A stretch of DNA of 32,000 nt from Halomicronema hongdechloris C2206 (GCF_002075285.3 NZ_CP021983.2:3150001-3182000), one strand, 5' to 3'; positions 12-22,196 are shown, numbered from the stretch's first letter. The notes: generated from the letters alone by a model not told the origin. Translations and numbers: made by a program.

Positions 12-1433
12 GTGATTGGCTATTTAGACTGTCCCACTGGGATTTCGGGCGACATGTGTTTGGGAGCGTTAGTCGATGCTGGGGTCCCTCTGGAGATGTT
101 GCAAGAGCAACTCCATGGGTTGGGACTCTCCGATGAGTTTGAGTTGCGCTCCCATCTCGTCACCCGCAATGGCCAAGCTGCCACCAGGGTTGAGGTCGAT
201 TTAAACTGCCAAGGACCCCATCGCCACCTGAGAGACATTGAAGAGCTGATCCAGCAGGCCCAGTTGCCACCCCAGGTCCGAGACCGGAGTCTGGCCATTT
301 TTCGGCGCCTGGCCGCGGCGGAAGGGGCGGTCCACGGTATTGCCCTGGAGCAGGTCCATTTCCATGAGGTGGGAGCTACCGATGCCATTGTGGATATTGT
401 TGGCACTTGCTTGGGGCTAGATTGGCTGCAGATTGATGCCCTCTACTGTTCGGCTCTGCCCACGGGGGGCGGCCGGGTGAGGGCGGCCCATGGCTGGTTG
501 CCAGTGCCGGCGCCAGCGGTATTGCAACTGATGCAAATGGCCCAGGTGCCGATTTATAGCAATGGCATTGAGGCCGAATTGGTAACGCCGACGGGATGTG
601 CGATCGCAACGACACTCGCCCAAGGTTTCGGCCCGCCGCCACCGTTGCGGCTACAGCGATTAGGGCTGGGGGCTGGGGGGCGTGATCTGTCGCTGCCGAA
701 TTTGCTGCGGCTGTGGCTGGGGCCGGCTACCCTTGAGCCTTCTCAGCCATCTCCAACAACCACAACTCCCCTATCCCCAGCCGCAACACCCCCTAGCCTA
801 GAAACCATCGCGGTCCTCCAGACTCAGGTAGACGATCTCAGTCCCCAAGCCATTGGCTACCTCTTCGACCAATTACTCCAGGCAGGAGCCCTGGACGTCT
901 TCACCCAGGCCATTGCCATGAAAAAAAATCGCCCTGGGGTCTTGATCACGGTGATCTGCTGGCCAGACCAGATTACCACCTGTGAAACCCTGCTGTTTCA
1001 AGAGACCACGACCCTAGGAATTCGACGGCACTGGCAACACCGCCATGCCTTGCAACGGCAACGAGTACCGGTAGCCACTCCCTATGGCACCGTACATATG
1101 AAACTGGCGTGGGATGGAACCACCGGAACCCATTACACTGCTCAGCCTGAATACGAAGACTGTGCCCAGCTAGCCCAACAGCATCAGCGCCCCTGGCGCG
1201 AGATCCATCGCGTGGCCTTGCACTGCTGGCATAGCCAGCCTGAGGCAGCTACCTACCTTCCCTCTTCCTCGATATCGATATCTCCATCCAGTAGTGAATC
1301 ATCAAATGATTCATCAAATGATTCATCGAAGAGCCGCTCATCCAGCCAAGCAGCTGCCTCGTCTAGGTCCAACTCTTCTTCTGACTCTGATGACTCTACC
1401 GATAGGAGAGATTCATCCAGGGCATCGGTCTGA
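12..1433 (+). CDS. larC: LarC-family (DUF111) nickel-insertion protein with a Ser-rich C-terminal tail
   Basis: The N-terminus MIGYLDCPTGISGDMCLGALVDAGVP matches the LarC/DUF111 signature (DC.sGISGDM.LGAL.DaG). A PEYEDC...REIHRVAL block near the C-terminus is typical of the family. The start is GTG at 12, preceded by GGAGAG. The last ~60 aa are Ser-rich low complexity and lie antisense to the acidic tail of the convergent gene. Confidence 0.85.
   Translation: MIGYLDCPTGISGDMCLGALVDAGVPLEMLQEQLHGLGLSDEFELRSHLVTRNGQAATRVEVDLNCQGPHRHLRDIEELIQQAQLPPQVRDRSLAIFRRLAAAEGAVHGIALEQVHFHEVGATDAIVDIVGTCLGLDWLQIDALYCSALPTGGGRVRAAHGWLPVPAPAVLQLMQMAQVPIYSNGIEAELVTPTGCAIATTLAQGFGPPPPLRLQRLGLGAGGRDLSLPNLLRLWLGPATLEPSQPSPTTTTPLSPAATPPSLETIAVLQTQVDDLSPQAIGYLFDQLLQAGALDVFTQAIAMKKNRPGVLITVICWPDQITTCETLLFQETTTLGIRRHWQHRHALQRQRVPVATPYGTVHMKLAWDGTTGTHYTAQPEYEDCAQLAQQHQRPWREIHRVALHCWHSQPEAATYLPSSSISISPSSSESSNDSSNDSSKSRSSSQAAASSRSNSSSDSDDSTDRRDSSRASV
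600..607. repeat. HIP1 (GCGATCGC) highly iterated palindrome; first of 13 exact copies
   Basis: Exact copies read directly start at 600, 3948, 4903, 5358, 12026, 12875, 13117, 16819, 21111, 23114, 23616, 27347 and 30235. Many share the extended context TGCGATCGCAAC. This density is a hallmark of many cyanobacterial genomes. Confidence 0.9.
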
Positions 1434-2785
1434 TAAAGAAGCCGAGAAAAGATCCGAACTGTCTCCGCATCAGCCCGGCGACTCGGGGCAGCTCCATCCT
1501 CATCCTGATCTGACTGATACCCAACTGTTTGGGCCGCCATCCGTACTAGGTTATACTCCACATTCTCGGCATAGATAGCAAAGGTCACCCGGAAAATTTC
1601 TAGAAAATTGATCACCCACTGGCATTGCTCCTGGGGAAATTGCTCATAATAGCGGATCAGATCGGCAATGCGAGCCTCTAGATAGGGGTGAGAGTTCTTA
1701 GAAATTAAAATTAGTTTTAGCAGCAGCACGACCAACGTCAGCGAGTTACCCTGGGATAGAATCAGAGTGAAGAGTTGAGAAGGATTTTTCTTATCCTCAG
1801 TCATCAAGCTGTCAATGACCCGGTTACAGGTGCGTAGAATCAGCGATCGGTCAACTTCTTCATCGGCATATTCTGGATATAAATCCTCTAGTTTATGGGT
1901 CAACTGGCGCTTGATAGTTTTCGCCGTCCCTTTGCGATTTATGGAATATAGCAGATATTGCAGCAGGCTTTTCTTGAATTGTTGATAGGTGAGCTGCTTA
2001 ACTTGCTCCAAGAACAGATGAGCCAGATTTTTATAACTGAATTGCCCTTGCTTGGCCACAATTCGCTTGATCAAGCGTAGCACTCCATCCCCGAGCACTG
2101 TGGGGTTCTGGGGAGCATTGGAGCTGGGCACGGAAGACTGTGAGTGGGCCGTATACATGGCCAACTCAAACTTAAACTGGTCCTTCAATCGCTGTGACAA
2201 GGCCCGAGCCGCCTCCCGTTGTTCGATGGGATTTTCGGCATTAATATACTGCGGCACCAGCAGATAAGACGTATAGCGAGCAGTCCAGTGCTCGTCCGGA
2301 TTCTTAACGTGGCGATCTGCATTGATGCGAGCTGCAAATAGAGCTAAATCTTGAAAATCTTGACTCTGCTTGAACGCTAGCAGCCAAGTCCGTAAACGCC
2401 TTAGGGTTGGTGATAAGGTCTGTTTTTCTAAGAGTGGATCATCAAATAAGTCGACCAGTTGCTGAATCGCAAAATAGTCACGGGCAACTTCCCAGTTGTT
2501 GACCAGAATATAGCAGCAGCGCTTCAGAGTGTTGCGAAATTCCTCTTCGTTGTTGGCGAAGATGATCGTGTACAGGGCTGGCAGTGTCTCCGAGCTAGCC
2601 GTTTCTGTGTGCTGAATGAATAGATGCTTAAACTCATTGAGGACATCCTCTACCGGCCAACTTTTGACGATGGTGAGTAGAAAGTCAAAGATGATTTGCT
2701 GAGCCTGAGGGATGTCTAACTCAGCCTTTCTGGGATGCTTGGGTATCTGGGATGAATAGTCGCTCGACACGTGTTCTTCAAGCAT
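1253..2785 (-). CDS. hypothetical protein (510 aa) with a strongly acidic C-terminal tail
   Basis: This is a long uninterrupted ORF with protein-like, helix-rich composition. I recognise no family motif. The C-terminal ~70 aa are D/E/S-rich (DESFDESFDDSLLDGDIDIEEEGR). The ORF overlaps the larC-like ORF by 181 bp. Confidence 0.6.
   Translation of the reverse strand: MLEEHVSSDYSSQIPKHPRKAELDIPQAQQIIFDFLLTIVKSWPVEDVLNEFKHLFIQHTETASSETLPALYTIIFANNEEEFRNTLKRCCYILVNNWEVARDYFAIQQLVDLFDDPLLEKQTLSPTLRRLRTWLLAFKQSQDFQDLALFAARINADRHVKNPDEHWTARYTSYLLVPQYINAENPIEQREAARALSQRLKDQFKFELAMYTAHSQSSVPSSNAPQNPTVLGDGVLRLIKRIVAKQGQFSYKNLAHLFLEQVKQLTYQQFKKSLLQYLLYSINRKGTAKTIKRQLTHKLEDLYPEYADEEVDRSLILRTCNRVIDSLMTEDKKNPSQLFTLILSQGNSLTLVVLLLKLILISKNSHPYLEARIADLIRYYEQFPQEQCQWVINFLEIFRVTFAIYAENVEYNLVRMAAQTVGYQSDQDEDGAAPSRRADAETVRIFSRLLYQTDALDESLLSVESSESEEELDLDEAAAWLDERLFDESFDESFDDSLLDGDIDIEEEGR
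1299..1327. repeat. 12-nt tandem repeat (TCATCAAATGAT x2 plus a partial third copy) inside the overlapping gene ends
   Basis: Direct reading shows tcatcaaatgat at 1299-1310 and 1311-1322, then tcatc at 1323-1327. On the minus strand it encodes the DESF-DESF repeat. On the plus strand it encodes SSND-SSND. Confidence 0.8.
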
Positions 2786-3505: not shown

Positions 3506-3852
3506 TGGGGGCGGAGGGACTTGAACCCTCACGACCTTAACGGTCAACGGATTTTCATTCTCCTGCAGTTTTCACTGCTGCCAGTGGCACCAAGTCGTGG
3601 CCACGGTTTTGAGAATTGGACCCTCCCTTTACCCTCGGCTTGACGTTAGGGTAGCTCCCGTCGGGCCTCTGCACCTTCCGATGGCGAGACGACTGTCCAT
3701 CGGCTTGGCTCAGGATTGCCATGTCCAGGAGAATAGGCTGAAATCCTCACTGGAGGTAGGTTTCCCTGAGTTTGAGAGCGTTCACTTGGCAGATTTCTCC
3801 ACCAAGGCTCAGTTGTCTAAGTCCGTAGCGTCTACCATTCCGCCACGCCCCC
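3506..3852 (-). tRNA. trnL: tRNA-Leu(UAA) interrupted by a group I intron
   Basis: The minus-strand 5' exon (3852..3819) is GGGGGCGTGGCGGAATGGTAGACGCTACGGACTT and ends at U34. The 3' exon (3555..3506) is AAAATCCGTTGACCGTTAAGGTCGTGAGGGTTCAAGTCCCTCCGCCCCCA. The acceptor stem pairs GGGGGCG with CGCCCCC. The anticodon stem pairs ACGGA with TCCGT. There is a long variable arm (GACC/GGTC) and a T-arm GAGGG-TTCAAGT-CCCTC. The splice junction gives anticodon U|AA. CCA is not encoded. Confidence 0.93.
3556..3818 (-). ncRNA. group I self-splicing intron (263 nt) in the tRNA-Leu(UAA) anticodon loop
   Basis: The insert lies exactly between U34 and A35, the canonical site of the cyanobacterial/plastid trnL intron. 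It ends in G (..GGAGAATG|AAAATCC). It contains the conserved core stretch ..CAATCCTGAGCCAAGCC..GGTGCAGAG..CGACGGGAGCTACCCTAACGTCAAG.CGAGGGTAAAGGGAG.GTCCAATTCTCAAA... It has no internal ORF. Confidence 0.9.
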
Positions 3853-6452: not shown

Positions 6453-7385
6453 GTGTTTAATCGTAAGCGACTATTCCGGTTCGTATGGATATTCGGGTTG
6501 TCACTCCTGGTAACCCTTTTCATGGGACATGTGCTGCAGCCTGTCTCGCCAGTGTCTGCACAAACAGTGATCGAGAATCAAGCCGGCGCCCAATTTGCAG
6601 ACGGCACCGGTAATACTCAAACCACAGAATCGAACGCTACGACACTTCAACAGGGCACTCAGGCAGCCGCTCTCAGAATTGTTAAGACGGCTGACCGCGC
6701 TGCTGCCGAACCAGGAGATGTGGTCGTTTACCAATTGGTTGTCACTAATGAGTCAGCCGTAGCGGCCACGCCAGTCACCATTACAGATCAACTTCCCTTG
6801 GGGTTGCAATTCATTGAAGACTCTGTCCGCGGCACTCCCAGTGATCCGACTTCTGTAAGTGTCTCCGGACGGCAAGTTACGTTTACGTTCCCCACCTTAA
6901 GCGCAGGTGAGAGTTTAACCATTGCCTACGGCGTCCTGTTAACGCCTGACTCCATTCGAGGCTCCGGTCGCAATGTTGCCCAGGCATCGGCTCCAGGCTT
7001 CACGCCAGTGACAGCGACGTTTCAAGTTGCCATTCGCCCGGGCATTCTATCCGACTGCGGCACCATCGTTGGTCGCGTCTTCGTCGATAAAAACTTCGAC
7101 GGGCAGCAACAGTCTGGCGAGCCTGGGGTTCCCAACGCCGTCATCTTTCTAGATGGTGGCAACCGCATCATTACAGATGCAGACGGCTTGTTTTCCTTGG
7201 CCAACGTTGTTTCCGGTAACCGGGTTGGCACCTTGGATCTCACTAGTTTGCCGGGGTATACCCTGGCACCCAACCTCTACCACATCTCTGAGAATAGCCA
7301 ATCCCGTCTGGTGCGACTAGCTCCAGGGGGACTGGCCCGCATGAACTTCGCTGTCACACCGACCTTTGGGGAGGGTCAGCCCTAA
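6453..7385 (+). CDS. secreted DUF11-domain + SdrD-B-like (CnaB-type fold) protein
   Basis: A signal peptide is present (MFNRKRLFRFVWIFGLSLLVTLF...VSA|QT). A DUF11-type module reads LRIVKTADRAAAEPGDVVVYQLVVTNES...TITDQLPLGLQF. An SdrD-B-like block reads GRVFVDKNFDGQQQSGEPGVPNAVIFLDGGNRIITDADGLFSLANV. The start is GTG. The stop TAA overlaps the next gene's ATG (TAATG). Confidence 0.8.
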   Translation: MFNRKRLFRFVWIFGLSLLVTLFMGHVLQPVSPVSAQTVIENQAGAQFADGTGNTQTTESNATTLQQGTQAAALRIVKTADRAAAEPGDVVVYQLVVTNESAVAATPVTITDQLPLGLQFIEDSVRGTPSDPTSVSVSGRQVTFTFPTLSAGESLTIAYGVLLTPDSIRGSGRNVAQASAPGFTPVTATFQVAIRPGILSDCGTIVGRVFVDKNFDGQQQSGEPGVPNAVIFLDGGNRIITDADGLFSLANVVSGNRVGTLDLTSLPGYTLAPNLYHISENSQSRLVRLAPGGLARMNFAVTPTFGEGQP

Positions 7386-10300
7386 TGTTTGCACTACCTA
7401 TTTATCGCTCCTGGCCACTCTTGGCTGTCTTACTCAGTTGGAGTGCTATTGCTACTCCGGCAGAAGCCGATACCCATGGCGATGAAGCTGCTCCTGCTGA
7501 CTCAGCAGTTGCGCTGGATAGCATGCTGGCGGTGACAGAAATGCCCCTAGGTGTTGCCGATAGTCAGCAGTCACTTGCCCAGCGGCAGGATTCCCAACCG
7601 CTTACTCCCGATGCCATACCGACAAATAGGCCGAGGAGGACCCAGTCGCCCCCCCTACTGCCGGCTCCAGGGCGCTCGATGGAGTCGTCAGTAGGGGTGC
7701 CGACAGAGGAAAAGTTAGTGCCTCATCCCCTCGAGCCCGCTGATTTGTTGCCCCGACCAGGGGAACCTCGGTTGACCCTGAGGCCAGCTGAAGACAGCTT
7801 TATTCACGCTGACAACCGGTCTACCCTCCTGTTGGAGGGCGAAGTTCTTGAGGTCGATGGTACACCTATCACCCACGATGTGGTAGTAACCCTAACGACT
7901 ACGGCGGGAGAATTTGTCGGCGCAGATTATGACCCCGATCGCCCCGGATTTCAGGTATTAGCTCGCCAAGGTACTTATCAGGCTCGGCTGCGCTCTGGCC
8001 TGGAAGCCCAATCGGTGCGGGTGCGGGCCGCGGTTAGTGGCATAGACGCCCGGGGTCTGGATCCGGAGGCCGTGAATGAACCCTATCCTACTTTGGAGGC
8101 CTTCAGTCAAGTTTCCTTTATCACCAATCTACGGCCCTCTCTATTTTCTGGTGTCGTCGATTTTCGCATCGGTCCAGGGGGGGCAGATTTTTGGGATAGC
8201 TTCCGAGAATTTTTGCCCCCAGACGACCCTGATGACGTCGATGTTGACTTGGGCGTGGCCCTGTTTGGCACCTTTCCCCTGGGAGAATGGCAGTTTACTG
8301 GAGCCTATAACAGCGAGCGGCCTCTGAATGAGCGCTGCGATGGTAATAACGAGCTCTTCCGGGACGATCAATTTTGTGAGCAGCGGTATCCGGTCTATGG
8401 CGACAGTTCCACCAACGACTATCTGACCCCGTCTATCGATAGCGTGTATCTGCGGCTGCAACGGGATTCCGAGATCCTGGGTCGCGAGCCGGACTATGTG
8501 ATGTGGGGAGACTACCATACTCAAGAGCTGGCTAGAGCCTCTCAGGATTTCACTGCGATTACCCGGCAGCTACATGGCTTTAAGGGCAACTATAGCTGGG
8601 GACCGCTGCAGTTGACGGCCCTATATGCCAACAACCTGCGCCCCTTTCAACGAGACACCATCGTCCCCGATGGCACCAGCGGCTACTACTTCCTCTCCCG
8701 GCGGTTAGTGCTACCCGGTAGCGAAAATGTCTTCATCGAAACCGAAGAGTTAAACCGACCCGGTACTGTGGTAGAGCGGCAGCAACTCAGTCGTGGCGCT
8801 GATTACGAAATCGACTACGACCGCGGTACCTTACTATTCCGGCAACCCCTGTTGGCTACGGAGGTAGATCCTCTGGGTGTGACCCTAGTCAGGCGCATTG
8901 TGGTCACCTATCAGGTGGATGGTGAAGAAGCCCGGGGAGACCTCTTTGCCAGTCGGTTGCAATACAACTTCAATGGCCAGACTGATGCAGACGGCTGGAC
9001 TGGCGTAACCGTTCTCACCCAAGACCAAGGGATTCAAGACTTTTCCCTCTACGGAGTGGACCTAATGGTGCCCCTTGGTGATAAGGGACAACTGGTGGGA
9101 GAATTTGCCCACTCCGATTCCTCCTCGCCGGAGTTGGATGCTTCGGGGCAAGCCTACCGTCTAGAAGCTAGCGGTTCGCCCTTAGAGGGTCTTGATGCCC
9201 GGGCCTATTTCCGTTCCACTGACAGTGATTTCCGCAATAACAGCACCCTAAGTTTTCGACCAGGGCAAACTCGCTGGGGCGGTAGCTTTGATGCTCGTTT
9301 GGGTCCCGATACCCAAGTCAGGGCCCAGTTCGATCAAGAAACCAACTTTGGTCCCTCGTCCACGGTGTTGACCTCGGCAGATGCCTTGCTCTCCCCAGGG
9401 TTGGAGGCCTCCCAGGGACCACCGGTTAGCAATCGCCTTAATACCCTCAGCATTGGGGTACAGCAGCGCATTGCTCCTCTGACGTTGGGCCTTGATTGGG
9501 TGCATCGCTCTCGCGAAGACTGGGCGGCTGGTACGGACACCAGCAGTAGTCAATTAGTATCTCGTCTAAACTGGCCCCTGCTGCCCAACTTAACTTTTTT
9601 GGCCCAAAACGAGCTGAATGTTAGCTCCGAGCGCGATCCCCTCTACCCCACCCGTACCGTGGTGGGCCTGGAGTATGATGTCGAACCGGGGGTGAAACTA
9701 CGCTTAGCCCAACAATTTTTCTCTGGAGGGGAGGAACCAGGGTCAATCACTAGCCTAGATACCCTGTTTGACCACGAGCTCAGCGACAATACTAGCCTGA
9801 CTGGGCGCTATTCTCTGTTGGGAGGGTTCAATGGCATTACTGGCCAGGGCGCCATTGGCCTTAACCATCGGGTCACCTTGGCTCCAGGACTACGGGCTAA
9901 TTTTGCCCTAGAGCGCATCTTCAGCGATGGCTTCGAGGAAACGGGCAGTGGCCAGCGGTTTGCTCAGCCTTTTGCGGTAGGATCTGGAGCTTTTGCCTTG
10001 GGATTGCAGTCAGGTACGGCTTACTCTGTGGGGCTGGAATATACCGATAATCCGGCCTTTCAAGCCAGTGCCCGCATTGAGCATCGAGACTCTTCTGCCG
10101 GAGACAACACCGTTATCTCAGCCTCGGCAGCGGGGCGCATTACCCCGGCGCTGACCTCCCTATTTCGCTATCAGCACGCCAATTTTTCTAACCAGACCAT
10201 TGACCAACTGGGAGACTCGATCGATCTCAGGTTAGGCATGGCTTACCGCAACCCCAATAACGACAAGTTTAATGGACTGCTGAGCTATGAGTATCGCAAA

Positions 10301-10891
10301 AATCCCTCCACCACACCCTTAAGTATTCTGCAGGATGTCAGCAGTGAGTCCTCCGATCACACCCTGTCTCTGGAGGGGATATACGCGCCTAACTGGCAGT
10401 GGGAGTTTTACGGCAAATACGCCATGCGTTATAGCAATGCCACTATTGGCGGTAGCTTTGGCGATGACTTTTCGTTTAGTAACGCTATTCACCTAGCCCA
10501 ACTGCGGGCATCCTATCGCTTTGCCTACCACTGGGATGTCTTAGGGGAAGTGCGCTGGATTGGTCAACCAGCTGCCAATTTTAATGAGATTGGCACCGCC
10601 ATTGAATTGGGGTATTACTTAACGCCAGATCTGCGCATTGGTGTGGGCTATAGCTTTGGTCGGGCCGATGATGATTCCTTTGGCGGCAGTGGCGCCCGTA
10701 GTGCTGGTGGTCCCTATCTGGGCATATCGATGAAGGTAAATCAACTGTTTGATGGCTTTGGAGTGCAACCCACTGCCCCAGCTCAACAGGAAGAGTCTTA
10801 TGTTGATACGACTCAACCCCCAGACAATGAGCTTCCTGATGACGACAATTCTGAGGATCTGTCCACTGAACCAGGAGGCACATCCCGGTGA
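7385..10891 (+). CDS. large predicted outer-membrane protein: signal peptide, Pro-rich linker, Ig-like (Big_1-type) domain, extended beta-barrel region, acidic tail
   Basis: The signal peptide reads ...LLSWSAIATPAEA|D. GGAGG lies about 10 nt upstream of the ATG. An Ig-like block at aa ~134-219 reads ADNRSTLLLEGEVLEVDGTPITHDVVVTLTTTAGEF...VRVRAAV. The C-terminal ~600 aa show repeated amphipathic beta-hairpins with aromatic girdles (TAYSVGLEYTD, SLFRYQHANF, LLSYEYRKN, WEFYGKYAMRYS, LRASYRFAYHWDVLGEVRW, IELGYYLTPDLRIGVGYSFG). I recognise no specific family. Confidence 0.75.
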   Translation: MFALPIYRSWPLLAVLLSWSAIATPAEADTHGDEAAPADSAVALDSMLAVTEMPLGVADSQQSLAQRQDSQPLTPDAIPTNRPRRTQSPPLLPAPGRSMESSVGVPTEEKLVPHPLEPADLLPRPGEPRLTLRPAEDSFIHADNRSTLLLEGEVLEVDGTPITHDVVVTLTTTAGEFVGADYDPDRPGFQVLARQGTYQARLRSGLEAQSVRVRAAVSGIDARGLDPEAVNEPYPTLEAFSQVSFITNLRPSLFSGVVDFRIGPGGADFWDSFREFLPPDDPDDVDVDLGVALFGTFPLGEWQFTGAYNSERPLNERCDGNNELFRDDQFCEQRYPVYGDSSTNDYLTPSIDSVYLRLQRDSEILGREPDYVMWGDYHTQELARASQDFTAITRQLHGFKGNYSWGPLQLTALYANNLRPFQRDTIVPDGTSGYYFLSRRLVLPGSENVFIETEELNRPGTVVERQQLSRGADYEIDYDRGTLLFRQPLLATEVDPLGVTLVRRIVVTYQVDGEEARGDLFASRLQYNFNGQTDADGWTGVTVLTQDQGIQDFSLYGVDLMVPLGDKGQLVGEFAHSDSSSPELDASGQAYRLEASGSPLEGLDARAYFRSTDSDFRNNSTLSFRPGQTRWGGSFDARLGPDTQVRAQFDQETNFGPSSTVLTSADALLSPGLEASQGPPVSNRLNTLSIGVQQRIAPLTLGLDWVHRSREDWAAGTDTSSSQLVSRLNWPLLPNLTFLAQNELNVSSERDPLYPTRTVVGLEYDVEPGVKLRLAQQFFSGGEEPGSITSLDTLFDHELSDNTSLTGRYSLLGGFNGITGQGAIGLNHRVTLAPGLRANFALERIFSDGFEETGSGQRFAQPFAVGSGAFALGLQSGTAYSVGLEYTDNPAFQASARIEHRDSSAGDNTVISASAAGRITPALTSLFRYQHANFSNQTIDQLGDSIDLRLGMAYRNPNNDKFNGLLSYEYRKNPSTTPLSILQDVSSESSDHTLSLEGIYAPNWQWEFYGKYAMRYSNATIGGSFGDDFSFSNAIHLAQLRASYRFAYHWDVLGEVRWIGQPAANFNEIGTAIELGYYLTPDLRIGVGYSFGRADDDSFGGSGARSAGGPYLGISMKVNQLFDGFGVQPTAPAQQEESYVDTTQPPDNELPDDDNSEDLSTEPGGTSR

Positions 10892-12966
10892 TTAGACCCC
10901 TACGATCGCAAGCAATGTTTCATCCTGGGCTATTAGTGTTGGCCGGAACCATGACCCTAGGACTGGCGACGTCGGTATCGTCAGCAGATGTGACCGCCTC
11001 TGCCTATCGGATTACGGTCAACAGTGCTCTCGATGGCTCCGTTGCTGCCGATGTGGAGTTGACTCTGCGAGAAGCCATCTTGCTGGCGAATCATGAGTTG
11101 TCGCTAGAAGATCTGAGCCAGGTGGAGCGAGGGCTGGTTACCCCGATCACGGCGCCCGGGTCAATTATCGAGTTTGAGTTGCCTAGCGATGACAGGGTGA
11201 TTGAGCTGGTAGATTTATTGCCGTCAATTGCCACAGCCGATGTTGTTATCGATGGCACCACCCAGCCCGGATACGGTGAGACAGTCTCTGCCGTTGACAA
11301 TATCCCAACACCTGGAGTCAGTATCACGGCAGCTCCGGGAGAGGAGGTTTTCCGCGGGCTCACGATTACCGCGGATAGCGTCACTGTGCGGGGGATGAGT
11401 CTCTACGGATTCAGAGCTCAACATCGAGCGACCCAGACTACACCGCCGGCGGATATTTTCATCAGTAATGCGCCGCCCCCAGCCGATGCCAGCCCAGCGT
11501 CACCGCCAGTGAGCTTCTTTCAGTTTCAAGATCCGGCGTTGGCCCCTCAAGATGTGGTGATTGAGCTGAACTGGCTGGGGATAACGCCCGATGAGTCAAT
11601 TCCCGAGCATCGCTCTGCCTTTGGGGTATCGGTATTTAATGGGGTCGATACGGTGGTGCGGCAAAACCGGATTCAGCACCACCAGGGCAGCGGCGTGATC
11701 ACGGCGGTGCGGGCCCAGGGGCTACGGCTCACGGAAAATGTCATCCTGGGCAATGGCGTGGCTGGGATGCCGGATGCGGTGCGTCTGGAAGGTCAGATTG
11801 AGGGCACTGTGGTTACAGGCAACCTGATCTGTGGCAACGATGGCAGCGGTCTGTTTTTATTCAAGCCGGAGGGCGCCAGTCTGATTCAGGGGAATGATAT
11901 TCGCTTCAATGGTCGTCGCTTTGAGCGGGCAGCCGTGTATCTCATGGGCCGGGGCCATCAGGTGTTAGAGAATACCATCGGCTATCAACCGGGACCGGGG
12001 GTGGCGATTAGCGCCTTTCCCAGAAGCGATCGCAACCTGATTCGCCATAACCGCTTCACCCATTTAGACGGTCTCAGCATCGACCTAGGTGCCGATGACA
12101 ATACTGGTGTGCGGGACTTCCAGCAGGCCGATGGTCCTAATCCTCCCCGGAACTCCTACAACCGCCGTCTGGATACGGCCAATGGCGCCATTAATGCGCC
12201 TGGGTTTGACCAGTATGAGTTTGGGACAGACACCGAGACAACGCTGGTGACAGGCAACGCTGATCCAGGCAGTGAAGTTGACATTTATCAGGTGGTCGAA
12301 GGTGGCGGTCCCTACAGTCCTCTGGATACGCCCCTGACGACAGTGACTGCCGATGAGCAAGGGCGCTTCCAACTGAGCTGGGAGAAACCAGAGGGGACCT
12401 GGCTCAGTGCCATTGCCAGCGACCCCCTCTATGGCACCTCAGAACCCTCGCCAGTGGTCAAAGTGCTGGGCAGCGAGGGCACGGTGCCGGAACGTAGCCC
12501 TCAACTTCCCTATACAGCTAGCTGCCTGCCACCGGCAGTGGCCGCCGAACCGCCGCCCCCAGAACCGCTGCAGTTGCGGGTGCCCCGTAACATTCATTTT
12601 GCGCTGGACCGCTCCAATATTAGCCCCGAGAGTGCCGTCATCCTCGACCAAATTGTCGCAGTGATGCAGCAATACTCCTTTCTGGTGATCGAACTGCGGG
12701 GCCATACCGACCCTCGAGCCAGTGCTGCCTATAACCAGGCCCTCAGCGAGCGCCGGGCTCTAGCCGCCCGGGAGTATCTGCTGCGGCAGGGGATTGCCCC
12801 GGAGCGGCTGCGGATTTTGCCTTTGGGAGAAAGCCAACGCGCCACCAGCGGCAACACCCGCCTCGACTATGCCCGCGATCGCAGGGTAGAGTTCATCTTC
12901 CTCGATACCCGCGGCCTTGAAATTATCTTTGAGGCTCAAGAGAGCGATCTACAGATAGAACCCTAA
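10888..12966 (+). CDS. secreted right-handed beta-helix (CSLREA-type N-terminus) protein with C-terminal OmpA-like peptidoglycan-binding domain
   Basis: The GTG start overlaps the upstream stop (GTGA). AGGAGG lies 9 nt upstream, and an alternative ATG lies at 10915. A signal peptide is present. The LTLREAILLAN motif is CSLREA-like. PbH1-type repeats read NRIQHH.GSGV.., NVILGNG.., GNLICGNDGSGLF, GNDIRFNG. The OmpA_C block reads IHFALDRSNISPES...LRGHTDPRASAAYNQALSERRALAAREYL...RDRRVEFIF. Confidence 0.85.
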   Translation: MIRPLRSQAMFHPGLLVLAGTMTLGLATSVSSADVTASAYRITVNSALDGSVAADVELTLREAILLANHELSLEDLSQVERGLVTPITAPGSIIEFELPSDDRVIELVDLLPSIATADVVIDGTTQPGYGETVSAVDNIPTPGVSITAAPGEEVFRGLTITADSVTVRGMSLYGFRAQHRATQTTPPADIFISNAPPPADASPASPPVSFFQFQDPALAPQDVVIELNWLGITPDESIPEHRSAFGVSVFNGVDTVVRQNRIQHHQGSGVITAVRAQGLRLTENVILGNGVAGMPDAVRLEGQIEGTVVTGNLICGNDGSGLFLFKPEGASLIQGNDIRFNGRRFERAAVYLMGRGHQVLENTIGYQPGPGVAISAFPRSDRNLIRHNRFTHLDGLSIDLGADDNTGVRDFQQADGPNPPRNSYNRRLDTANGAINAPGFDQYEFGTDTETTLVTGNADPGSEVDIYQVVEGGGPYSPLDTPLTTVTADEQGRFQLSWEKPEGTWLSAIASDPLYGTSEPSPVVKVLGSEGTVPERSPQLPYTASCLPPAVAAEPPPPEPLQLRVPRNIHFALDRSNISPESAVILDQIVAVMQQYSFLVIELRGHTDPRASAAYNQALSERRALAAREYLLRQGIAPERLRILPLGESQRATSGNTRLDYARDRRVEFIFLDTRGLEIIFEAQESDLQIEP

Positions 12967-13020: not shown

Positions 13021-15954
13021 ATGAAGCGTTTTCAGGACATTTTAAGCTCTCGCCTATCCCTGCCGCAGCCTGGCTGCCGCTCCTCTGTCACCGGTTGGGG
13101 AGCGGCGTTGGCTGGTGCGATCGCAACGGGTTTGCTCTCTCCCCAATCCGCATCCGCTGCCACCTTAGACTGGGGGACCTTCAACTGGACAGCACCGGCT
13201 CCAGACCCCCCCCCCATTACCCAGGTCTTTCCCACCCCCATCGGTGACCCTGCCACCATCAATGGCGTCAAGCTGCGGTTTACCTGGACCGGAGCCACCG
13301 ATGACTTTACCGTACTCAGTGATGCCGCCAGCCCTTTGACAGGTGGCTTGGGAGCCGGAAACAATCTAAACATTCAATTCGATCCCGATACCGTTGCCGA
13401 AACCGTCAACCTCACCATTGAATACCTAGACGACGCGGGTAACCCCATACCAGTCGAAGGGGTCCGCCTGATCGTGATTGACATCGACCGTGATGATTTA
13501 GGTGGTTGGCAGGATCAGGTTACCTTAGACGGTTCCCTCGGCGGCACAAACGTACTACCAACCATCTCCGATGCCACTAATCCTCCCCCAGCACCACCTA
13601 CTACTACTCCCGGCATCACAAATGCACTAACTGTCGATATTGCGGGTAATGTCGCCACAGGCGTGTACCCCCCTGCGACAACTGATGAAGCACAGAATGA
13701 TACTGCAGACGGTAACATCGTTGCCGACTACGCTTCGGCTGTTGATCAAACAACTCTAGTTTATGGCAACGGTCCTGACTCACCAGCCGATCCAGCCAAC
13801 CACGGTATCGGCCTCTTCAATGTATTTTTCCAACCTGCCATCATTGGGGTGGCCAAACAGGCCGGCACGCCCACCCAAAACCCTGATGGCACCTTCACGA
13901 TTCCCTACACCGTTGTAGTGGAAAACCTGGGAGAAGTTGCTCTTGACGACGTACAGGTAACCGAGAACCTAACTGGCACCTTTGCCGCCACCAATGGATT
14001 TACTGTCTCCAACCCTCGCATCGTGGCCTCGCCAGGGGGCTTCGGCGGTAGCATTAACGGTGGTTTCAACGGCAATACCAGCACCACCCTCCTAGCAGGC
14101 TCAGCCGCCGCCCGCACCCTCGCGGTTGGCGACACCCTGACCCTGGCCTTCGATGTCACCGTTACTCCCGGAGCTGGAGCCGGCGGCTATGGTCCTTTCA
14201 ATAACAACGTGACGGCTACGGGCCAAAGTCCCAGTGGTGCCCCCGTTACCGATGAGTCAGACGACGGTGCCGACCCCGATCCCGACGGCAATGGCAGCCC
14301 CACCGAAAATGACCCCACTGTGGTGAACCTGCCTGCAATTGGGGTGGCCAAGCGGGTGATCGATATTCAGGATGTCGGCGGCACCCCAAATCCTGACGAC
14401 CTCGACATTACCTACGAGGTGGTGGTGGAAAACTTCGGCAATGAGCCCCTAGACAATGTGCAATTGGTGGAAGATTTGATTGATCCCACCACCGGCAATC
14501 CCACCTTCGGGGCTGGCAACTTCACCATCGCTGCCGGACCCACGGTGACGGCTGGTACCCTGACCGCCAATGGTGGCTTTAATGGAACCACCGATACCAA
14601 CTTGCTGGATGCGGCTAACAGTACCTTGGCCGTCGGGGCCAGTGGCACGGTGCAAATTACTGTGCGAGTGACAGACAGCAACAGTTCTCCGCCATTGCCA
14701 GCAGCACCTCCAGCCATCTATCGTAACCAGGTCAATGCCAGTGGTGTCGGTCGCACCAGTGGCGGTAACGTCTCAGACACCTCGGATAACGGTGCCGATG
14801 CCGATGAAGACGGGGATGGCAACCCCGCCAACAATAGTACGCCCACTCCCGTGCGCCTGCCTCCCACGCCAGCCATCGGCACTTCTAAACGAGTGGTGTC
14901 AACGACAGCCGCCCCTACCGGGGCCTTTGGCGGTGATACGATCCGCGTCGTCTACGAGATCGTCGTCGAAAACATTGGCGGCGAAACCCTCGACACGGTG
15001 CAGCTCAGTGAAGACCTAACCCCTACCTTTGGGGCAGGCAGCTTTCAAGTCCAGAACTTGCAACAAACCGCCGGAGCCAACACAATTACCGTCAATGGTG
15101 GTTTCGACGGCGGTGCTACCCCTGAACTCCTGGTGGCAGCTACCAGCACCCTAGATATTGGGGAGAGTGCCACACTGCAATTGACCGTAGATGTCGATCA
15201 AACCTCCACTACATTGCCCACCCCTCTCCCCGGTCCCTTCGAGAATCAGGTAGAAGCGACGGCCCAGGGCACTTTCACCAACACTCCAGTTGACGACCTC
15301 TCCAACAATGGTACCCAAGCCGCTATCGATCCCAATGGCAATGCCAATGCCAATGAGCCGGACGAGAATACCCCCACCCCAGTATTATTTGTCGGAGATT
15401 TACAATTGGTGAAGCGGATTACCAATGTCTTCCGCAATGGGACTCCTCTCTCTGCTGCCGAGATTGGCGGTGATCCCAGTGCCGTCATCAATGGTCCCGG
15501 CGCCGACGACGATGATCTGATTGCCGCTAGTGGCGGCCAGTTACCCGCGGGGTTACTCTCGGTGCCCACTAATCTGCTCTCAGGGGATGAAGTAGAATAC
15601 ACCATTTACTTCTTCAATGATGGCGCCCTAGCCGTCAATGACGTGCAACTCTGCGATGAGTTAGAGCCTCCCAGCATCTTCGTGCCAGGGAGTTTAGCGC
15701 TCTCGGCTCCAGTGGCCCTACCAGGTCCCCTAGGGGCCTTCGGTGCCAGTGGATTACTAGACACTCGCAATCCCCTAGCTCCCTTAGAGCCCTCCTGTAT
15801 CAATGCTCCCGGCGCCTTTCCCGTTGGCCCACCCGGCCCCACTGATACCACCATTGGCGTCGGGGCTGGCGGCGGTGTCATCCTAGGAGGCACGGGCTTC
15901 ACCGTAGATTCTAGTAACGTCGGGGCACTGCGCTTTAGAATTACACTGCCCTAG
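13021..15954 (+). CDS. secreted multi-DUF11-repeat surface protein (977 aa)
   Basis: A signal peptide is present (..GAIATGLLSPQSASA|AT). The N-terminal ~225 aa domain is unassigned. Four tandem DUF11-type modules follow, each with the motifs (I/L)G(V/T)(A/S)K.., Y.(V/I)VVEN.G...L..VQ..E(N/D)L and N.V.A(T/S). Acidic D.SD(D/N)GAD.D.DG(N/D)G linkers separate the modules. I saw no LPXTG, PEP-CTERM or obvious T9SS CTD. Confidence 0.85.
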   Translation: MKRFQDILSSRLSLPQPGCRSSVTGWGAALAGAIATGLLSPQSASAATLDWGTFNWTAPAPDPPPITQVFPTPIGDPATINGVKLRFTWTGATDDFTVLSDAASPLTGGLGAGNNLNIQFDPDTVAETVNLTIEYLDDAGNPIPVEGVRLIVIDIDRDDLGGWQDQVTLDGSLGGTNVLPTISDATNPPPAPPTTTPGITNALTVDIAGNVATGVYPPATTDEAQNDTADGNIVADYASAVDQTTLVYGNGPDSPADPANHGIGLFNVFFQPAIIGVAKQAGTPTQNPDGTFTIPYTVVVENLGEVALDDVQVTENLTGTFAATNGFTVSNPRIVASPGGFGGSINGGFNGNTSTTLLAGSAAARTLAVGDTLTLAFDVTVTPGAGAGGYGPFNNNVTATGQSPSGAPVTDESDDGADPDPDGNGSPTENDPTVVNLPAIGVAKRVIDIQDVGGTPNPDDLDITYEVVVENFGNEPLDNVQLVEDLIDPTTGNPTFGAGNFTIAAGPTVTAGTLTANGGFNGTTDTNLLDAANSTLAVGASGTVQITVRVTDSNSSPPLPAAPPAIYRNQVNASGVGRTSGGNVSDTSDNGADADEDGDGNPANNSTPTPVRLPPTPAIGTSKRVVSTTAAPTGAFGGDTIRVVYEIVVENIGGETLDTVQLSEDLTPTFGAGSFQVQNLQQTAGANTITVNGGFDGGATPELLVAATSTLDIGESATLQLTVDVDQTSTTLPTPLPGPFENQVEATAQGTFTNTPVDDLSNNGTQAAIDPNGNANANEPDENTPTPVLFVGDLQLVKRITNVFRNGTPLSAAEIGGDPSAVINGPGADDDDLIAASGGQLPAGLLSVPTNLLSGDEVEYTIYFFNDGALAVNDVQLCDELEPPSIFVPGSLALSAPVALPGPLGAFGASGLLDTRNPLAPLEPSCINAPGAFPVGPPGPTDTTIGVGAGGGVILGGTGFTVDSSNVGALRFRITLP
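13837..15390 (+). repeat. three tandem ~165-180-aa DUF11-type coding modules (a fourth, divergent module follows to about 15750)
   Basis: The module boundaries are aa 273-438, 439-617 and 618-790. The conserved Lys sits at K279, K444, K623 and K798. Confidence 0.75.
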
Positions 15955-17394: not shown

Positions 17395-17421
17395 TGACAG
17401 TGATCCATCAGGTGCATCGCC

Positions 17422-18351: not shown

Positions 18352-18496
18352 CCCCGAGCATACTAGCAGCTTGTTCGACAGGATTGCCCTAAGAGGATAT
18401 TTGGAAAGTACTCTGCAACCTTGCTCCAGACTGGATTCTGGCCAACAGAACCATACGCTCTAAAATGCCTACCTTACAGGCCTTTCAGCCGAGTTT

Positions 18497-19753: not shown

Positions 19754-19762
19754 GGCAATCTC

Positions 19763-22156: not shown

Positions 22157-22196
22157 GGTTAAACCTCATAAATCTGACTAATAGTTGCAACGTGAC

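What the first reader, a model, noticed from the sequence alone, without database searches (positions are those of the whole stretch)
7385..10891. Atypical architecture of the 1168-aa barrel protein
Read from the translation, the protein has these parts in order:
- a signal peptide;
- a ~105-aa Pro/acidic linker;
- one intimin/invasin-style Ig-like domain (aa ~134-219);
- a ~330-aa middle region with Cys pairs (ERCDGNNELFRDDQFCEQRYPVYGDSS) and a GTSGYYFLSRR...GSENVFIE...RGADYEIDYDRGTLLF block;
- at least 600 aa of amphipathic hairpins;
- a 45-aa acidic tail after the last barrel-like strand (..GPYLGISMKV).

The protein therefore does not end in a canonical terminal aromatic beta-signal. The Ig-domain-then-barrel order is the reverse of inverse autotransporters. 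The barrel region is far larger than the 12-16 strands of type V systems. I could not match it to usher, LptD, BamA/TamA or secretin signatures by eye.
Basis: partly seen in the sequence, partly recalled or inferred. Interest (0 to 1): 0.6.

Follow-up and report, generated by a model that had tools for sequence, protein, structure and literature searches.

The report
Giant outer-membrane barrel for CLIPPER fibres
This cyanobacterial gene encodes a very large (about 40-strand) outer-membrane barrel from a big, uncharacterised family that in at least ten phyla sits next to, or is fused to, isopeptide-type "CLIPPER" surface-fibre proteins, so it is probably the membrane channel and anchor of an undescribed surface-fibre system rather than the "TonB-dependent receptor" that databases call it.

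Summary
It has a signal peptide, a 100-aa disordered Pro/acidic linker, one Ig-like domain, a huge beta region and a disordered acidic tail.

Three corrections:
- There is only one Cys pair (C318/C331), and it is cyanobacteria-specific.
- The "middle region" is not a separate module. AlphaFold reads it as barrel strands 1-8 plus a ~75-aa beta-domain inserted before strands 9-40.
- The first ~20 residues after the last strand are conserved.

No Pfam, NCBIfam or PDB-sequence match supports TonB-dependent receptor (the PGAP name), usher, LptD, BamA, secretin, SprA or type V. Foldseek finds only generic similarity to other giant barrels (TM <= 0.3).

The family is large (3120 clusters) and spans many phyla. 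In 70 of 73 assessable loci the barrel gene is directly preceded by, or fused to, CLIPPER (DUF11) repeat proteins, usually with an SdrD_B-like domain and OmpA peptidoglycan-binding domains.

Best reading: it is the outer-membrane conduit and collar of a peptidoglycan-tethered CLIPPER fibre or adhesin system. Giant 38/40-strand barrels with N-terminal invasin-D3 domains have been predicted before, without a function.

The parts
6453..7385 (+). Gene 1: 310-aa Sec-exported protein with one CLIPPER (DUF11) domain and a C-terminal SdrD_B/CarboxypepD_reg-like domain. Its stop overlaps the barrel gene's start (TAATG).
   Evidence: Pfam DUF11 E 8e-13 and SdrD_B E 3e-5. TIGR01451 E 8e-16. Weak match to the CLIPPER crystal structure 9IFR, with the isopeptide Lys and the catalytic Asp aligned. 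Junction sequence. The same module is fused N-terminal to the barrel in other phyla.
7385..10891 (+). The finding: gene for the 1168-aa giant barrel protein.
   Evidence: ORF. 1522 homologues and 3120 representative clusters. AlphaFold models.
7385..7468 (+). Signal peptide, aa 1-28, with predicted cleavage after AEA.
   Evidence: Read from the sequence. Hydrophobic core conserved in alignment A1.
7469..7768 (+). Disordered Pro/acidic linker, aa 29-128.
   Evidence: Composition. pLDDT < 50. Hypervariable in length among homologues.
7769..8050 (+). Ig-like (Big_1/Invasin_D3-like) domain, aa 129-222. Presumed periplasmic.
   Evidence: Sub-threshold Invasin_D3 and Big_1. 8 strands at pLDDT about 86-97. 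Many invariant residues.
8093..8638 (+). Barrel strands 1-8, aa 237-418. This stretch includes the long low-confidence loop that carries the Cys pair.
   Evidence: DSSP strands are identical in both models.
8336..8377 (+). Cys318...Cys331, the only two cysteines. A putative loop disulfide found only in the cyanobacterial clade.
   Evidence: Invariant in 32 sequences. Absent in distant relatives. The loop has pLDDT < 50.
8645..8875 (+). Inserted small beta domain, aa 421-497, with the family-wide motifs G(T/I)SGYY(F/Y)L and DYxIDYxxGTLxF. A candidate plug or gate.
   Evidence: Six short strands between barrel strands 8 and 9. Motifs invariant in cyanobacteria and kept across phyla. Its position in the lumen was not seen.
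8885..10741 (+). Barrel strands 9-40, aa 501-1119.
   Evidence: 32 long strands in both models. 25 of 39 neighbouring strand pairs show a coevolution ladder above the 95th percentile of the background.
10739..10798 (+). Conserved post-barrel motif NxLFxxFGxQxxxPxQQxES, aa 1119-1138.
   Evidence: Invariant or nearly invariant columns in A1.
10799..10888 (+). Variable acidic and Pro-rich disordered tail, aa 1139-1168.
   Evidence: Absent in non-cyanobacterial relatives.
10888..12966 (+). Gene 3: 692-aa Sec-exported protein with a right-handed beta-helix/NosD-like region, a Big_6 domain and a C-terminal OmpA peptidoglycan-binding domain. Its start overlaps the barrel gene's stop (GTGA).
   Evidence: Pfam OmpA E 2e-16 and Beta_helix E 6e-8. 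NCBIfam OmpA-type families. Junction. Conserved in L001, L003 and L004.
13021..15954 (+). Gene 4: 977-aa Sec-exported protein rich in CLIPPER/CLIPPER_2 repeats. The putative fibre or adhesin cargo.
   Evidence: Pfam DUF7507 E 4e-16 and DUF11 E 1e-7. TIGR01451. Orthologous position in L003 and L004, and in Acinetobacter plasmid p4.

Best explanation
The ORF encodes the outer-membrane subunit of a four-gene, translationally coupled cassette: a small CLIPPER protein, the giant barrel, an OmpA-domain protein and a large CLIPPER protein.

Proposed mechanism:
1. All four proteins carry Sec-type signal peptides and reach the periplasm.
2. The 1168-aa protein is inserted in the outer membrane as a single beta-barrel of about 40 strands. 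Its N-terminal Ig-like domain faces the periplasm. A ~75-aa beta domain, inserted between strands 8 and 9, may gate the very wide lumen.
3. The barrel serves as conduit and collar for CLIPPER (DUF11, CnaA-like, isopeptide-stabilised) fibre or adhesin proteins. These can fold in the periplasm and still fit through such a lumen.
4. The CLIPPER + SdrD_B-like module (gene 1) and the OmpA-domain partner (gene 3) form a base that ties the assembly to peptidoglycan.

Shown here: the ORF and its domain layout; the size and breadth of the family; the near-universal synteny and repeated gene fusions with CLIPPER, SdrD_B-like and OmpA modules; and the absence of signatures of TonB-dependent receptors, ushers and other known families.

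Inferred: outer-membrane location, barrel closure, which side the CLIPPER proteins end up on, passage through the lumen, and gating by the insert.
For: Cassette and coupling:
- Stop/start overlaps TAATG and GTGA link genes 1-2 and 2-3.
- The same four genes in the same order occur in Leptolyngbya PCC 7375, Coleofasciculus and Leptolyngbya FACHB-261, with unrelated flanks in the last two.
- Acinetobacter haemolyticus plasmid p4 shows the same order: small DUF11 proteins, a DUF11-barrel fusion, an 'OmpA family protein', then a 978-aa DUF11 protein.

Breadth:
- 3120 representative clusters at E <= 1e-3.
- Members occur in Cyanobacteria, KSB1, Neomarinimicrobiota, Lentisphaeria, Ignavibacteriota, Bacteroidota, Acidobacteriota, Desulfobacterota, and Alpha-, Gamma- and Zetaproteobacteria.

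Linkage:
- In 70 of 73 assessable loci a CLIPPER gene lies directly upstream on the same strand or is fused to the barrel. There are 8 fusions.
- 49 loci have the SdrD_B-like domain in that adjacent or fused protein, and 37 have OmpA domains in the cluster.
- Pfam confirms examples, for instance a 2228-aa protein with 8 DUF11 domains, 2 OmpA domains (E 1e-35) and SdrD_B just upstream of the barrel.
- In fusions the domain order is fixed: CLIPPER(n), SdrD_B-like, optional OmpA, Ig, barrel. One relative carries three SLH domains instead.

Structure:
- Two AlphaFold models agree on an Ig domain plus 40 long strands. The better model has pLDDT 81.1 and pTM 0.74.
- The best Foldseek matches are the largest known barrels: SlpA, SprA, MtrB, FimD and LptD.
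- 25 of 39 adjacent strand pairs show coevolution ladders.

CLIPPER domains are the isopeptide-bonded stalk domains of fibrillar adhesins (bioRxiv 10.1101/2025.04.25.650565).
Against: - No experiment exists on any family member, and all homologues are named 'hypothetical' or mis-named.
- I could not see coordinates. Closure of one 40-strand barrel, as against 8+32 or another split, and a luminal position for the insert are unverified. My coevolution test gave no signal for the strand 1-40 pairing (z -0.05) and only a weak one for 2-40 (z 2.1).
- In full fusions the OmpA domain lies between the CLIPPER module and the barrel (L082, L085). It must be periplasmic. This fits a wholly periplasmic CLIPPER base at least as easily as an exported one.
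- Chlamydial OmcB, a DUF11 protein, has been argued to be largely periplasmic (my own knowledge).
- No ATPase, chaperone or other energy source is encoded in the cassette.
Confidence: 0.5

Rival explanations
1. Envelope-stapling complex without export. The giant barrel, its Ig domain, the CLIPPER + SdrD_B module and the OmpA (or SLH) module form a structural tether between outer membrane and peptidoglycan. The CLIPPER repeats stay in the periplasm as a rigid strut or sub-membrane lattice, as proposed for chlamydial OmcB. The barrel may double as a large pore, as SlpA and OmpM do.
For: - The top Foldseek hits are D. radiodurans SlpA, which is both tether and pore.
- OmpA domains are in the cluster in 37 of 73 loci and lie immediately N-terminal to the barrel in the fusions L082 and L085.
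- One relative carries 3 SLH domains.
- Pfam Chlam_OMP6 similarity appears in the upstream CLIPPER proteins.
Against: - Upstream proteins with 8-11 CLIPPER domains are far longer than a periplasm is wide. That is my estimate from roughly 4 nm per Ig-like domain.
- Operons carry several additional small CLIPPER proteins in a pilin-like set.
- CLIPPER domains are characteristic of surface fibrillar adhesins.
- A 40-strand lumen is hard to rationalise for a mere anchor.
Confidence: 0.2
2. It is a TonB-dependent receptor or other nutrient-uptake channel, as NCBI's PGAP names many cyanobacterial homologues.
For: - Names such as 'TonB-dependent receptor' or 'OprO/OprP family porin' appear on many homologues.
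- TonB-dependent transporters appear among the Foldseek hits.
Against: - No Plug (PF07715) or TonB_dep_Rec (PF00593) match at E <= 1 in any of 32 members.
- No NCBIfam family and no PDB sequence hit for the profile.
- About 40 strands rather than 22.
- The internal domain is inserted after strand 8, not N-terminal.
- Foldseek TM is 0.13-0.25 only.
- There are no tonB/exbBD neighbours. The context is always CLIPPER genes.
Confidence: 0.03
3. It is the outer-membrane porin for the (sulfated or pyruvylated) exopolysaccharide whose biosynthesis genes lie just downstream. That would make it a GfcD/YjbH- or Wzi-like role.
For: Polysaccharide pyruvyl transferase (16201-17394), sulfotransferase (17422-18351) and four glycosyltransferases (18497-23285, minus strand) follow the cassette. 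The same two transferase genes follow it in PCC 7375.
Against: - These genes are absent next to the cassette in Coleofasciculus and Leptolyngbya FACHB-261.
- They were not seen in the loci from other phyla whose neighbours were read: Smithella, Acidobacteriota, Acinetobacter plasmid p4 and Sulfitobacter. The own-HMM scan of the 87 loci did not test for them.
- There is no YjbH, Wza or OPX match.
- There is no OPX or PCP partner in the cassette.
Confidence: 0.05

Closest known systems
Computationally predicted giant 38-/40-strand OMBB superfamily (Solan et al. 2021, PNAS, families 003 and 002; three D. radiodurans proteins AAF11946, UID71982 and UID69687 in von Kuegelgen et al. 2022, Table S3)
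   Same: A single giant barrel of 38-40 predicted strands. [quoted passage not shown]
   Different: I could not obtain those sequences, so identity of the family is untested. Neither paper gives a function, a gene context or the link to CLIPPER proteins.
Chaperone-usher pathway ushers (FimD, PapC)
   Same: An outer-membrane barrel encoded in an operon with several Ig-fold fibre subunits. There is a periplasmic N-terminal domain. A small beta-sandwich domain is inserted inside the barrel sequence after the first few strands (the plug lies between strands 6 and 7 in ushers; here the insert follows strand 8). FimD and PapC appear among the Foldseek hits.
   Different: 24 strands against about 40. 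There is no Pfam Usher match. No PapD-like chaperone gene and no C-terminal usher domains are present. The subunits are complete CnaA-like CLIPPER domains, not strand-deficient pilins. TM is at most 0.37.
Type IX secretion translocon SprA/Sov (36 strands)
   Same: A very large single-chain barrel able to pass folded cargo. Both occur in FCB-group bacteria. SprA is a Foldseek hit at E about 1e-7 to 1e-8.
   Different: No sequence or Pfam similarity, and TM is 0.1-0.2. The family occurs in many phyla that lack T9SS. No CTD-type sorting signal or Por partners were looked for or seen in the cassette.
SlpA/OmpM SLH-barrel tethers (Deinococcus, Negativicutes, Cyanobacteria)
   Same: The best Foldseek match. 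A giant barrel is functionally joined to a cell-wall-binding module: SLH in SlpA, an OmpA partner here, and three SLH domains in relative P0191.
   Different: The window protein has no SLH domain or coiled coil. It has about 40 strands against 30. TM is about 0.2 and there is no sequence similarity.
Type V secretion (autotransporters, intimin/invasin)
   Same: The fused relatives have the 'repeat-rich N-terminal part plus C-terminal barrel' layout. There is an Ig-like Big_1/Invasin_D3-type domain.
   Different: Type V barrels have 12-16 strands. No autotransporter or IAT_beta match was found. Here the Ig domain precedes the barrel and is probably periplasmic.
Fibrillar adhesins with a CLIPPER stalk and a C-terminal OmpA-like anchor (Acinetobacter silvestris B9T28_05395; bioRxiv 10.1101/2025.04.25.650565)
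   Same: The same CLIPPER(n)...OmpA architecture is seen in the proteins encoded directly upstream of the barrel in FCB-group loci.
   Different: That paper describes the adhesin only. No export route or barrel partner is given. Whether that gene sits beside a barrel of this family was not tested.

Membership tests
TonB-dependent receptor (the PGAP name of many homologues) | N-terminal plug domain (Pfam PF07715) preceding the barrel | tested here: not met
   No Plug hit at E <= 1 in any of 32 members, nor at E <= 0.1 in the window protein. The only internal domain is inserted after strand 8.
TonB-dependent receptor (the PGAP name of many homologues) | 22-strand barrel matching PF00593 or the NCBIfam TBDR models | tested here: not met
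   No TonB_dep_Rec hit. No NCBIfam family at all. About 40 strands. Foldseek TM to TBDTs is 0.13-0.25.
TonB-dependent receptor (the PGAP name of many homologues) | TonB box and a tonB-exbBD or substrate-uptake gene context | tested here: not met
   No such neighbours in the window or in the neighbourhoods read gene by gene. The own-HMM scan of the 87 loci did not test for them, but the flanking genes it flagged are CLIPPER genes. The TonB box itself was not searched as a motif.
Chaperone-usher usher | Pfam Usher (PF00577) barrel with PapC N- and C-terminal domains | tested here: not met
   No hit in 32 members. Foldseek to FimD and PapC gives TM 0.16-0.37.
Chaperone-usher usher | Cognate PapD-like periplasmic chaperone in the operon | tested here: not met
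   The Pfam results for the cassette genes show only DUF11, SdrD_B, Beta_helix, Big_6 and OmpA.
Chaperone-usher usher | Plug domain inserted within the barrel sequence that occludes the lumen | tested here: inconclusive
   A ~75-aa beta domain is inserted between strands 8 and 9. Its 3D position could not be inspected.
Type V secretion (autotransporter or inverse autotransporter) | 12- or 16-strand barrel (PF03797, PF11924, PF01103-type) with an adjacent passenger | tested here: not met
   No such Pfam hits. About 40 strands. There is only a weak Invasin_D3/Big_1 hit for aa 136-222.
T9SS SprA/Sov | SprA-type 36-strand barrel (SprA_N repeats) with Por partners | tested here: not met
   No Pfam hit. 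Foldseek TM is 0.10-0.20. Por partners were not searched genome-wide.
SlpA/OmpM | N-terminal SLH domain plus coiled-coil stalk preceding the barrel | tested here: not met
   No SLH hit in the window protein. The model shows an Ig domain, not a coiled coil. One distant relative does have 3 SLH domains.
LptD, BamA/TamA, secretin, YjbH/GfcD | The respective Pfam signatures (LptD, Bac_surface_Ag/POTRA, Secretin, YjbH) | tested here: not met
   None was reported at E <= 1 in 32 members. The profile against PDB sequences gave 0 hits at E <= 10.
DUF2490 (PF10677) | Score above the Pfam gathering threshold (29.8 bits) | tested here: not met
   22.5 bits for aa 1040-1094. The hit is weak but recurrent, in 30 of 32 members. 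I take it as generic similarity of C-terminal OMP hairpins.
Predicted 38/40-strand OMBB superfamily (Solan 2021; D. radiodurans AAF11946 and others) | A single barrel of 38-40 strands with N-terminal invasin-D3-type Ig domain(s) | tested here: met
   40 DSSP strands in two models, and an Invasin_D3-like domain at aa 129-217. Descriptions.
Predicted 38/40-strand OMBB superfamily (Solan 2021; D. radiodurans AAF11946 and others) | Detectable sequence homology to the published members | not testable with these tools
   The published accessions could not be fetched, and the supplement listing the family members is not held.
CLIPPER/DUF11 proteins (the neighbours, genes 1 and 4) | Pfam PF01345/PF24346 above threshold, with the Lys-Asp-Asn isopeptide triad | tested here: met
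   DUF11 at 49.1 bits (gene 1), and DUF7507 at 59.3 and DUF11 at 32.4 bits (gene 4). In the alignment of gene 1 to 9IFR, K78 and the Asp of ITDQLP align exactly, while the Asn is offset by one residue. The bond itself is untested.

The most novel reading that the evidence does not exclude
This is the outer-membrane core of a previously unrecognised envelope machine found in more than ten phyla, in effect a new type of secretion or assembly pathway. A single-chain barrel of about 40 strands, larger than any solved barrel, would let fully folded, isopeptide-locked CLIPPER fibres through. It would hold them on a peptidoglycan-anchored base, making it the diderm counterpart of the sortase-assembled, wall-anchored pili of Gram-positive bacteria.
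Probability: 0.35. Interest if true: 0.85.

Novelty: new variant of a known kind. Interest (0 to 1): 0.7.

Why it matters
- How CLIPPER/DUF11 fibrillar adhesins of Gram-negative bacteria cross and stay attached to the outer membrane is not explained in the literature I could search. This family offers a specific, testable candidate, and it is present in tractable bacteria (Acinetobacter haemolyticus plasmid p4, Sinorhizobium meliloti, Vibrio campbellii, Synechococcus NIES-970).
- A 40-strand single-chain barrel would exceed SprA (36 strands), the largest solved. It would raise questions for BAM-mediated folding, because the terminal-strand signal is internal in all members.
- It would also correct a widely propagated mis-annotation ('TonB-dependent receptor') in cyanobacterial genomes, which inflates counts of iron-uptake genes.

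Tried and rejected
- TonB-dependent receptor, usher, LptD, BamA, secretin, SprA, type V, YjbH/GfcD: rejected by Pfam, NCBIfam and PDB-profile searches.
- Cyanobacterial tubular (CT) pilus cluster (PMC12397347). I read it because it mentions an outer-membrane porin as a possible assembly platform. Its gene set (CT pilins, O-GlcNAc transferase, FkbM methyltransferase) has nothing in common with this cassette.
- Link to the downstream EPS genes: not conserved.
- The search for related loci with a nine-sequence cross-phylum alignment failed for lack of a conserved stretch. It was repeated with four closer sequences.
- hmmalign with my first iterated barrel HMM mis-mapped the C-terminus. I replaced it with a MAFFT alignment.
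- Mean-field DCA with gaps as a state gave gap-driven artefacts. After restricting to gap-poor columns and dropping the gap state (Meff 195), neighbouring hairpins were recovered. Barrel closure was not: strand pair 1-40 gave z -0.05, 2-40 z 2.1, 1-8 z -0.2 and 9-40 z -1.1. So one barrel versus two is not settled by my own coevolution analysis.
- Model coordinates are not exposed. Strand counts rest on DSSP strings only.
- Eight full-text literature searches found no paper describing this operon.


Full report
**1. The observation**

The ORF is real: 7385-10891, plus strand, ATG start, 1168 aa. It is the second gene of a tight plus-strand cassette.
- Gene 1 (6453-7385, 310 aa) ends on the A of the barrel gene's ATG (TAATG).
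- The barrel gene's stop overlaps the GTG start of gene 3 (10888-12966, 692 aa) by four bases (GTGA).
- Gene 4 (13021-15954, 977 aa) follows after 54 bases.

All four products begin with Sec-type signal peptides, as read from the sequences printed.

- **Signal peptide:** aa 1-28.
- **Linker:** aa 29-128, with 17 Pro, 15 Asp/Glu and no aromatics. It is disordered and hypervariable among homologues.
- **Ig-like domain:** aa 129-217. It scores only below Pfam thresholds (Invasin_D3 E 4e-4; Big_1 in 17 of 32 homologues). It is nevertheless confidently modelled and full of invariant residues.
- **Cysteines:** there are exactly two (C318, C331), so one pair. They are invariant in 32 cyanobacterial sequences and absent outside cyanobacteria.
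- **Acidic tail:** aa 1120-1168 has 12 Asp/Glu against 1 Lys/Arg and is disordered. Its first ~20 residues (NxLFxxFGxQxxxPxQQxES) are conserved, and many homologues end in GGEE.

**2. Structure**

A first AlphaFold2 model used the full length and 32 sequences. It gave mean pLDDT 65.9 and pTM 0.54. A second used aa 126-1125 and a 112-sequence cross-phylum alignment. It gave pLDDT 81.1 and pTM 0.74.

Both models give the same secondary-structure map:
- an 8-strand Ig domain;
- eight long strands (237-418), with a low-confidence loop holding the Cys pair;
- a small six-strand beta domain (421-497) carrying the family motifs GTSGYYF and DYEIDYDRGTLLF;
- 32 more long strands, up to residue 1119.

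That makes 40 long strands.

Coordinates are not exposed by the tools. I therefore could not see whether the sheet closes into one barrel or where the insert sits.

As an independent check I aligned 332 family members (Meff about 195) and ran mean-field DCA.
- 25 of the 39 neighbouring strand pairs have antiparallel coupling ladders above the 95th percentile of non-neighbouring pairs. This supports the hairpin meander.
- The closing pair gave no signal: strand pair 1-40 z -0.05, 2-40 z 2.1.

Closure is therefore an inference from AlphaFold confidence and from the literature (section 6).

**3. Known families**

- Pfam gives only the sub-threshold Invasin_D3 hit and a sub-threshold DUF2490 hit on the last hairpins.
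- NCBIfam gives nothing.
- Scanning all 32 aligned members at E <= 1 returns no Plug, TonB_dep_Rec, Usher, LptD, Bac_surface_Ag, Secretin, SprA, autotransporter or YjbH model.
- A family profile finds no PDB sequence at E <= 10.
- Foldseek against the PDB ranks D. radiodurans SlpA (30 strands), SprA (36), MtrB (26), FimD/PapC (24), LptD (26) and TonB-dependent transporters (22) at E 1e-10 to 1e-5. TM-scores are only 0.1-0.37 and rmsd is 18-38 A, for both models.

This is generic 'large outer-membrane barrel' similarity, not membership. The PGAP name 'TonB-dependent receptor' carried by many cyanobacterial homologues fails every defining feature I could test.

**4. Relatives and context (the decisive evidence)**

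The close family has 1522 hits, all cyanobacterial among the best 120. An exhaustive profile search finds 3120 representative clusters at E <= 1e-3 and 1139 at E <= 1e-30.

Many distant relatives are 1600-2900 aa fusions:
- A Smithella protein has five or six CLIPPER (DUF11) domains followed by the barrel.
- An Acidobacteriota protein is named 'isopeptide-forming domain-containing fimbrial protein'.
- One protein has CarboxypepD_reg, DUF11, three SLH domains, Big_1 and the barrel.

The neighbours of these fusions are again CLIPPER, SpaA_4 or DUF7925 proteins.

A scan of one genome per species returned 80 loci. They come from KSB1, Neomarinimicrobiota, Lentisphaeria, Ignavibacteriota, Bacteroidota, Acidobacteriota, and Zeta- and Gammaproteobacteria. 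A plasmid search added Alphaproteobacteria, Vibrio, Acinetobacter and Synechococcus NIES-970.

I built HMMs from the window's own domains and searched all ORFs of the 87 loci. Results:
- In 70 of 73 assessable loci a CLIPPER gene lies directly upstream on the same strand or is fused to the barrel (8 fusions).
- In 49 loci that adjacent or fused protein carries the SdrD_B-like domain that forms the C-terminal half of window gene 1.
- 37 clusters contain OmpA domains.
- The domain order is always CLIPPER(n), SdrD_B-like, optional OmpA (1-2 copies), then Ig and barrel.

Pfam confirmed the calls on examples, for instance 8 DUF11 + SdrD_B + 2 OmpA (E 1e-35) in a 2228-aa protein that ends where the barrel gene starts. 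Typical FCB-group operons also carry three smaller CLIPPER proteins (about 160, 270 and 620 aa) upstream, which looks like a pilin-like set.

The four-gene cyanobacterial order is conserved in three other cyanobacteria. In two of them (Coleofasciculus, Leptolyngbya FACHB-261) the flanks are unrelated to the window's, while PCC 7375 shares them. It recurs on Acinetobacter haemolyticus plasmid p4 as small DUF11 proteins, a 2008-aa DUF11-barrel fusion, an 'OmpA family protein' and a 978-aa DUF11 protein.

The beta-helix part of gene 3 is cyanobacteria-specific. The downstream pyruvyl-transferase, sulfotransferase and glycosyltransferase genes are shared only with PCC 7375. I do not count them as part of the unit.

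**5. Mechanism**

DUF11 was renamed CLIPPER. It has been shown crystallographically to be a CnaA-like domain with an intramolecular Lys-Asn isopeptide bond, typical of the stalks of fibrillar adhesins. One such Acinetobacter adhesin has a C-terminal OmpA-like anchor (bioRxiv 10.1101/2025.04.25.650565). Gene 1's CLIPPER domain aligns to that structure (9IFR), with the Lys and the catalytic Asp in register.

Repeated independent fusions and near-universal adjacency are classical evidence that the CLIPPER/SdrD_B module, the wall-binding module and the barrel work as one physical assembly.

My best reading (confidence about 0.5) is as follows. The barrel is the outer-membrane conduit and collar of a CLIPPER fibre or adhesin system. 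Its periplasmic base (Ig domain, gene-1 module, OmpA protein) is tied to peptidoglycan. The very wide lumen allows already folded, isopeptide-locked domains to pass. The inserted domain is a candidate gate, by analogy with the usher plug, which is likewise inserted within the barrel sequence.

What is shown is the association. Location, direction of transport and gating are inferred.

The main rival (about 0.2) is a non-exporting envelope staple with periplasmic CLIPPER struts. It is favoured by the position of OmpA between CLIPPER and barrel in the full fusions and by the SlpA resemblance. Against it are the 8-11-domain length of the partner proteins and the surface role of CLIPPER domains elsewhere.

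The TonB-dependent-uptake and EPS-porin readings are weak (0.03 and 0.05).

**6. The C-terminus**

All ten non-cyanobacterial relatives I read end in a strand of the form GPY-x-x-[LIF]-x-[FMV]-K-[FVL]. Six of the ten then carry only 7-10 more residues (for example ...GPYLKLRFKF-DEKTLRK and ...FYLLFRMKF-SESIFDWK). The other four carry 12-40 more. The window protein has the same strand (GPYLGISMKV) followed by 50 residues.

So a beta-signal-like last strand is present, but it is never C-terminal in this family. The long acidic tail is a cyanobacterial elaboration of unknown role.

**7. Prior knowledge and novelty**

I found no paper on this operon in eight full-text searches.

The barrel type, however, has been predicted before.
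- Solan et al. 2021 reported 'a superfamily of large OMBBs' with 38 and 40 strands, supported by contact maps (PMC8346858).
- Von Kuegelgen et al. [quoted passage not shown]

That is the same architecture as here. I could not fetch those sequences to prove homology. Neither source proposes a function or notes the CLIPPER linkage.

I therefore rate the protein as a member of a large, computationally glimpsed but functionally uncharacterised family. I rate the system as a new variant of a known kind (outer-membrane fibre export and anchoring platforms). There is a real chance (about 0.35) that it is a distinct, widespread secretion or assembly pathway.

**8. Verdict**

- The 'atypical and unmatched' interpretation is largely right.
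- The database name is wrong.
- The gene context turns an odd protein into a concrete, testable hypothesis.

Noticed in passing
window 3601-3828 (-), exons flanking at about 3842-3829 and 3550-3540: Rfam group I intron (RF00028, 59.3 bits, E 8.5e-13). The flanks read GGGGGCGTGGCGGAATGGTAGACGCTACGGACTTA ... AAAATCCGTTGACCGT, which I read as the classical intron-split cyanobacterial tRNA-Leu(UAA) gene. ARAGORN reported no tRNA in the window.
   Followed up: partly
window 16201-23285: Polysaccharide pyruvyl transferase, sulfotransferase and four glycosyltransferase genes lie directly downstream of the cassette, which suggests a sulfated or pyruvylated exopolysaccharide locus. The same two transferase genes follow the cassette in Leptolyngbya PCC 7375 (L001) but not in Coleofasciculus or FACHB-261.
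   Followed up: partly
homologues P0010-P0119, P0327, P0399; plasmid hits H3, H8, H9: NCBI PGAP names many members 'TonB-dependent receptor'. Others are named 'OprO/OprP family phosphate-selective porin' or 'Ig-like domain-containing protein'. None of these barrel names is supported by any domain match, so this is a propagated mis-annotation.
   Followed up: yes
L001 15703-20868: In Leptolyngbya PCC 7375 the counterpart of gene 4 appears split into a 377-aa and a 796-aa CLIPPER ORF by a DDE transposase gene on the opposite strand (16798-18180). This would be an IS insertion in the putative cargo gene.
   Followed up: no
L088 (Acinetobacter haemolyticus plasmid p4, CP085288.1 191166-203531): A mobilizable 302-kb plasmid carries the whole system in the same order as the window: small DUF11 and NEW3 proteins, a 2008-aa DUF11-barrel fusion, an OmpA family protein and a 978-aa DUF11 protein. 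A transposase follows. The system can therefore travel horizontally and exists in a culturable host.
   Followed up: partly
L053 (contig CALRIY020000049.1, 'Synechococcus sp. UW140' MAG): This contig carries a Bacteroidota/Ignavibacteriota-type short-form barrel (32% identity to P0228) with a 3276-aa downstream CLIPPER ORF, unlike the cyanobacterial cassette. It is probably a binning contaminant or a transfer.
   Followed up: no
barrel protein aa 524/559 and 529/564 (window about 8954-9076): The strongest DCA coupling (524-559), together with 529-564, links positions 35 residues apart in the same direction, between DSSP strands 10 and 12. That is not the antiparallel pattern expected. Strand pairs 8-10 and 5-8 also score high while 8-9 and 9-10 do not. 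This is unexplained. It could reflect alignment register problems or a local topology different from a simple meander around the insert.
   Followed up: no
L089 (Sulfitobacter sp. S190 plasmid, NZ_CP081124.1): Here the barrel gene (1138 aa) is preceded by a single hypothetical ORF of about 4650 aa. If it belongs to the system, the partner proteins can be giant.
   Followed up: no
window 1253-2785 (-): This 510-aa ORF has no hit in this Pfam copy. Its positional counterpart in L001 is tagged Sll1247_N/Sll1247_C in the precomputed (newer) Pfam. The whole left flank (Ni-insertion protein, this gene, trpA) is syntenic with PCC 7375.
   Followed up: no
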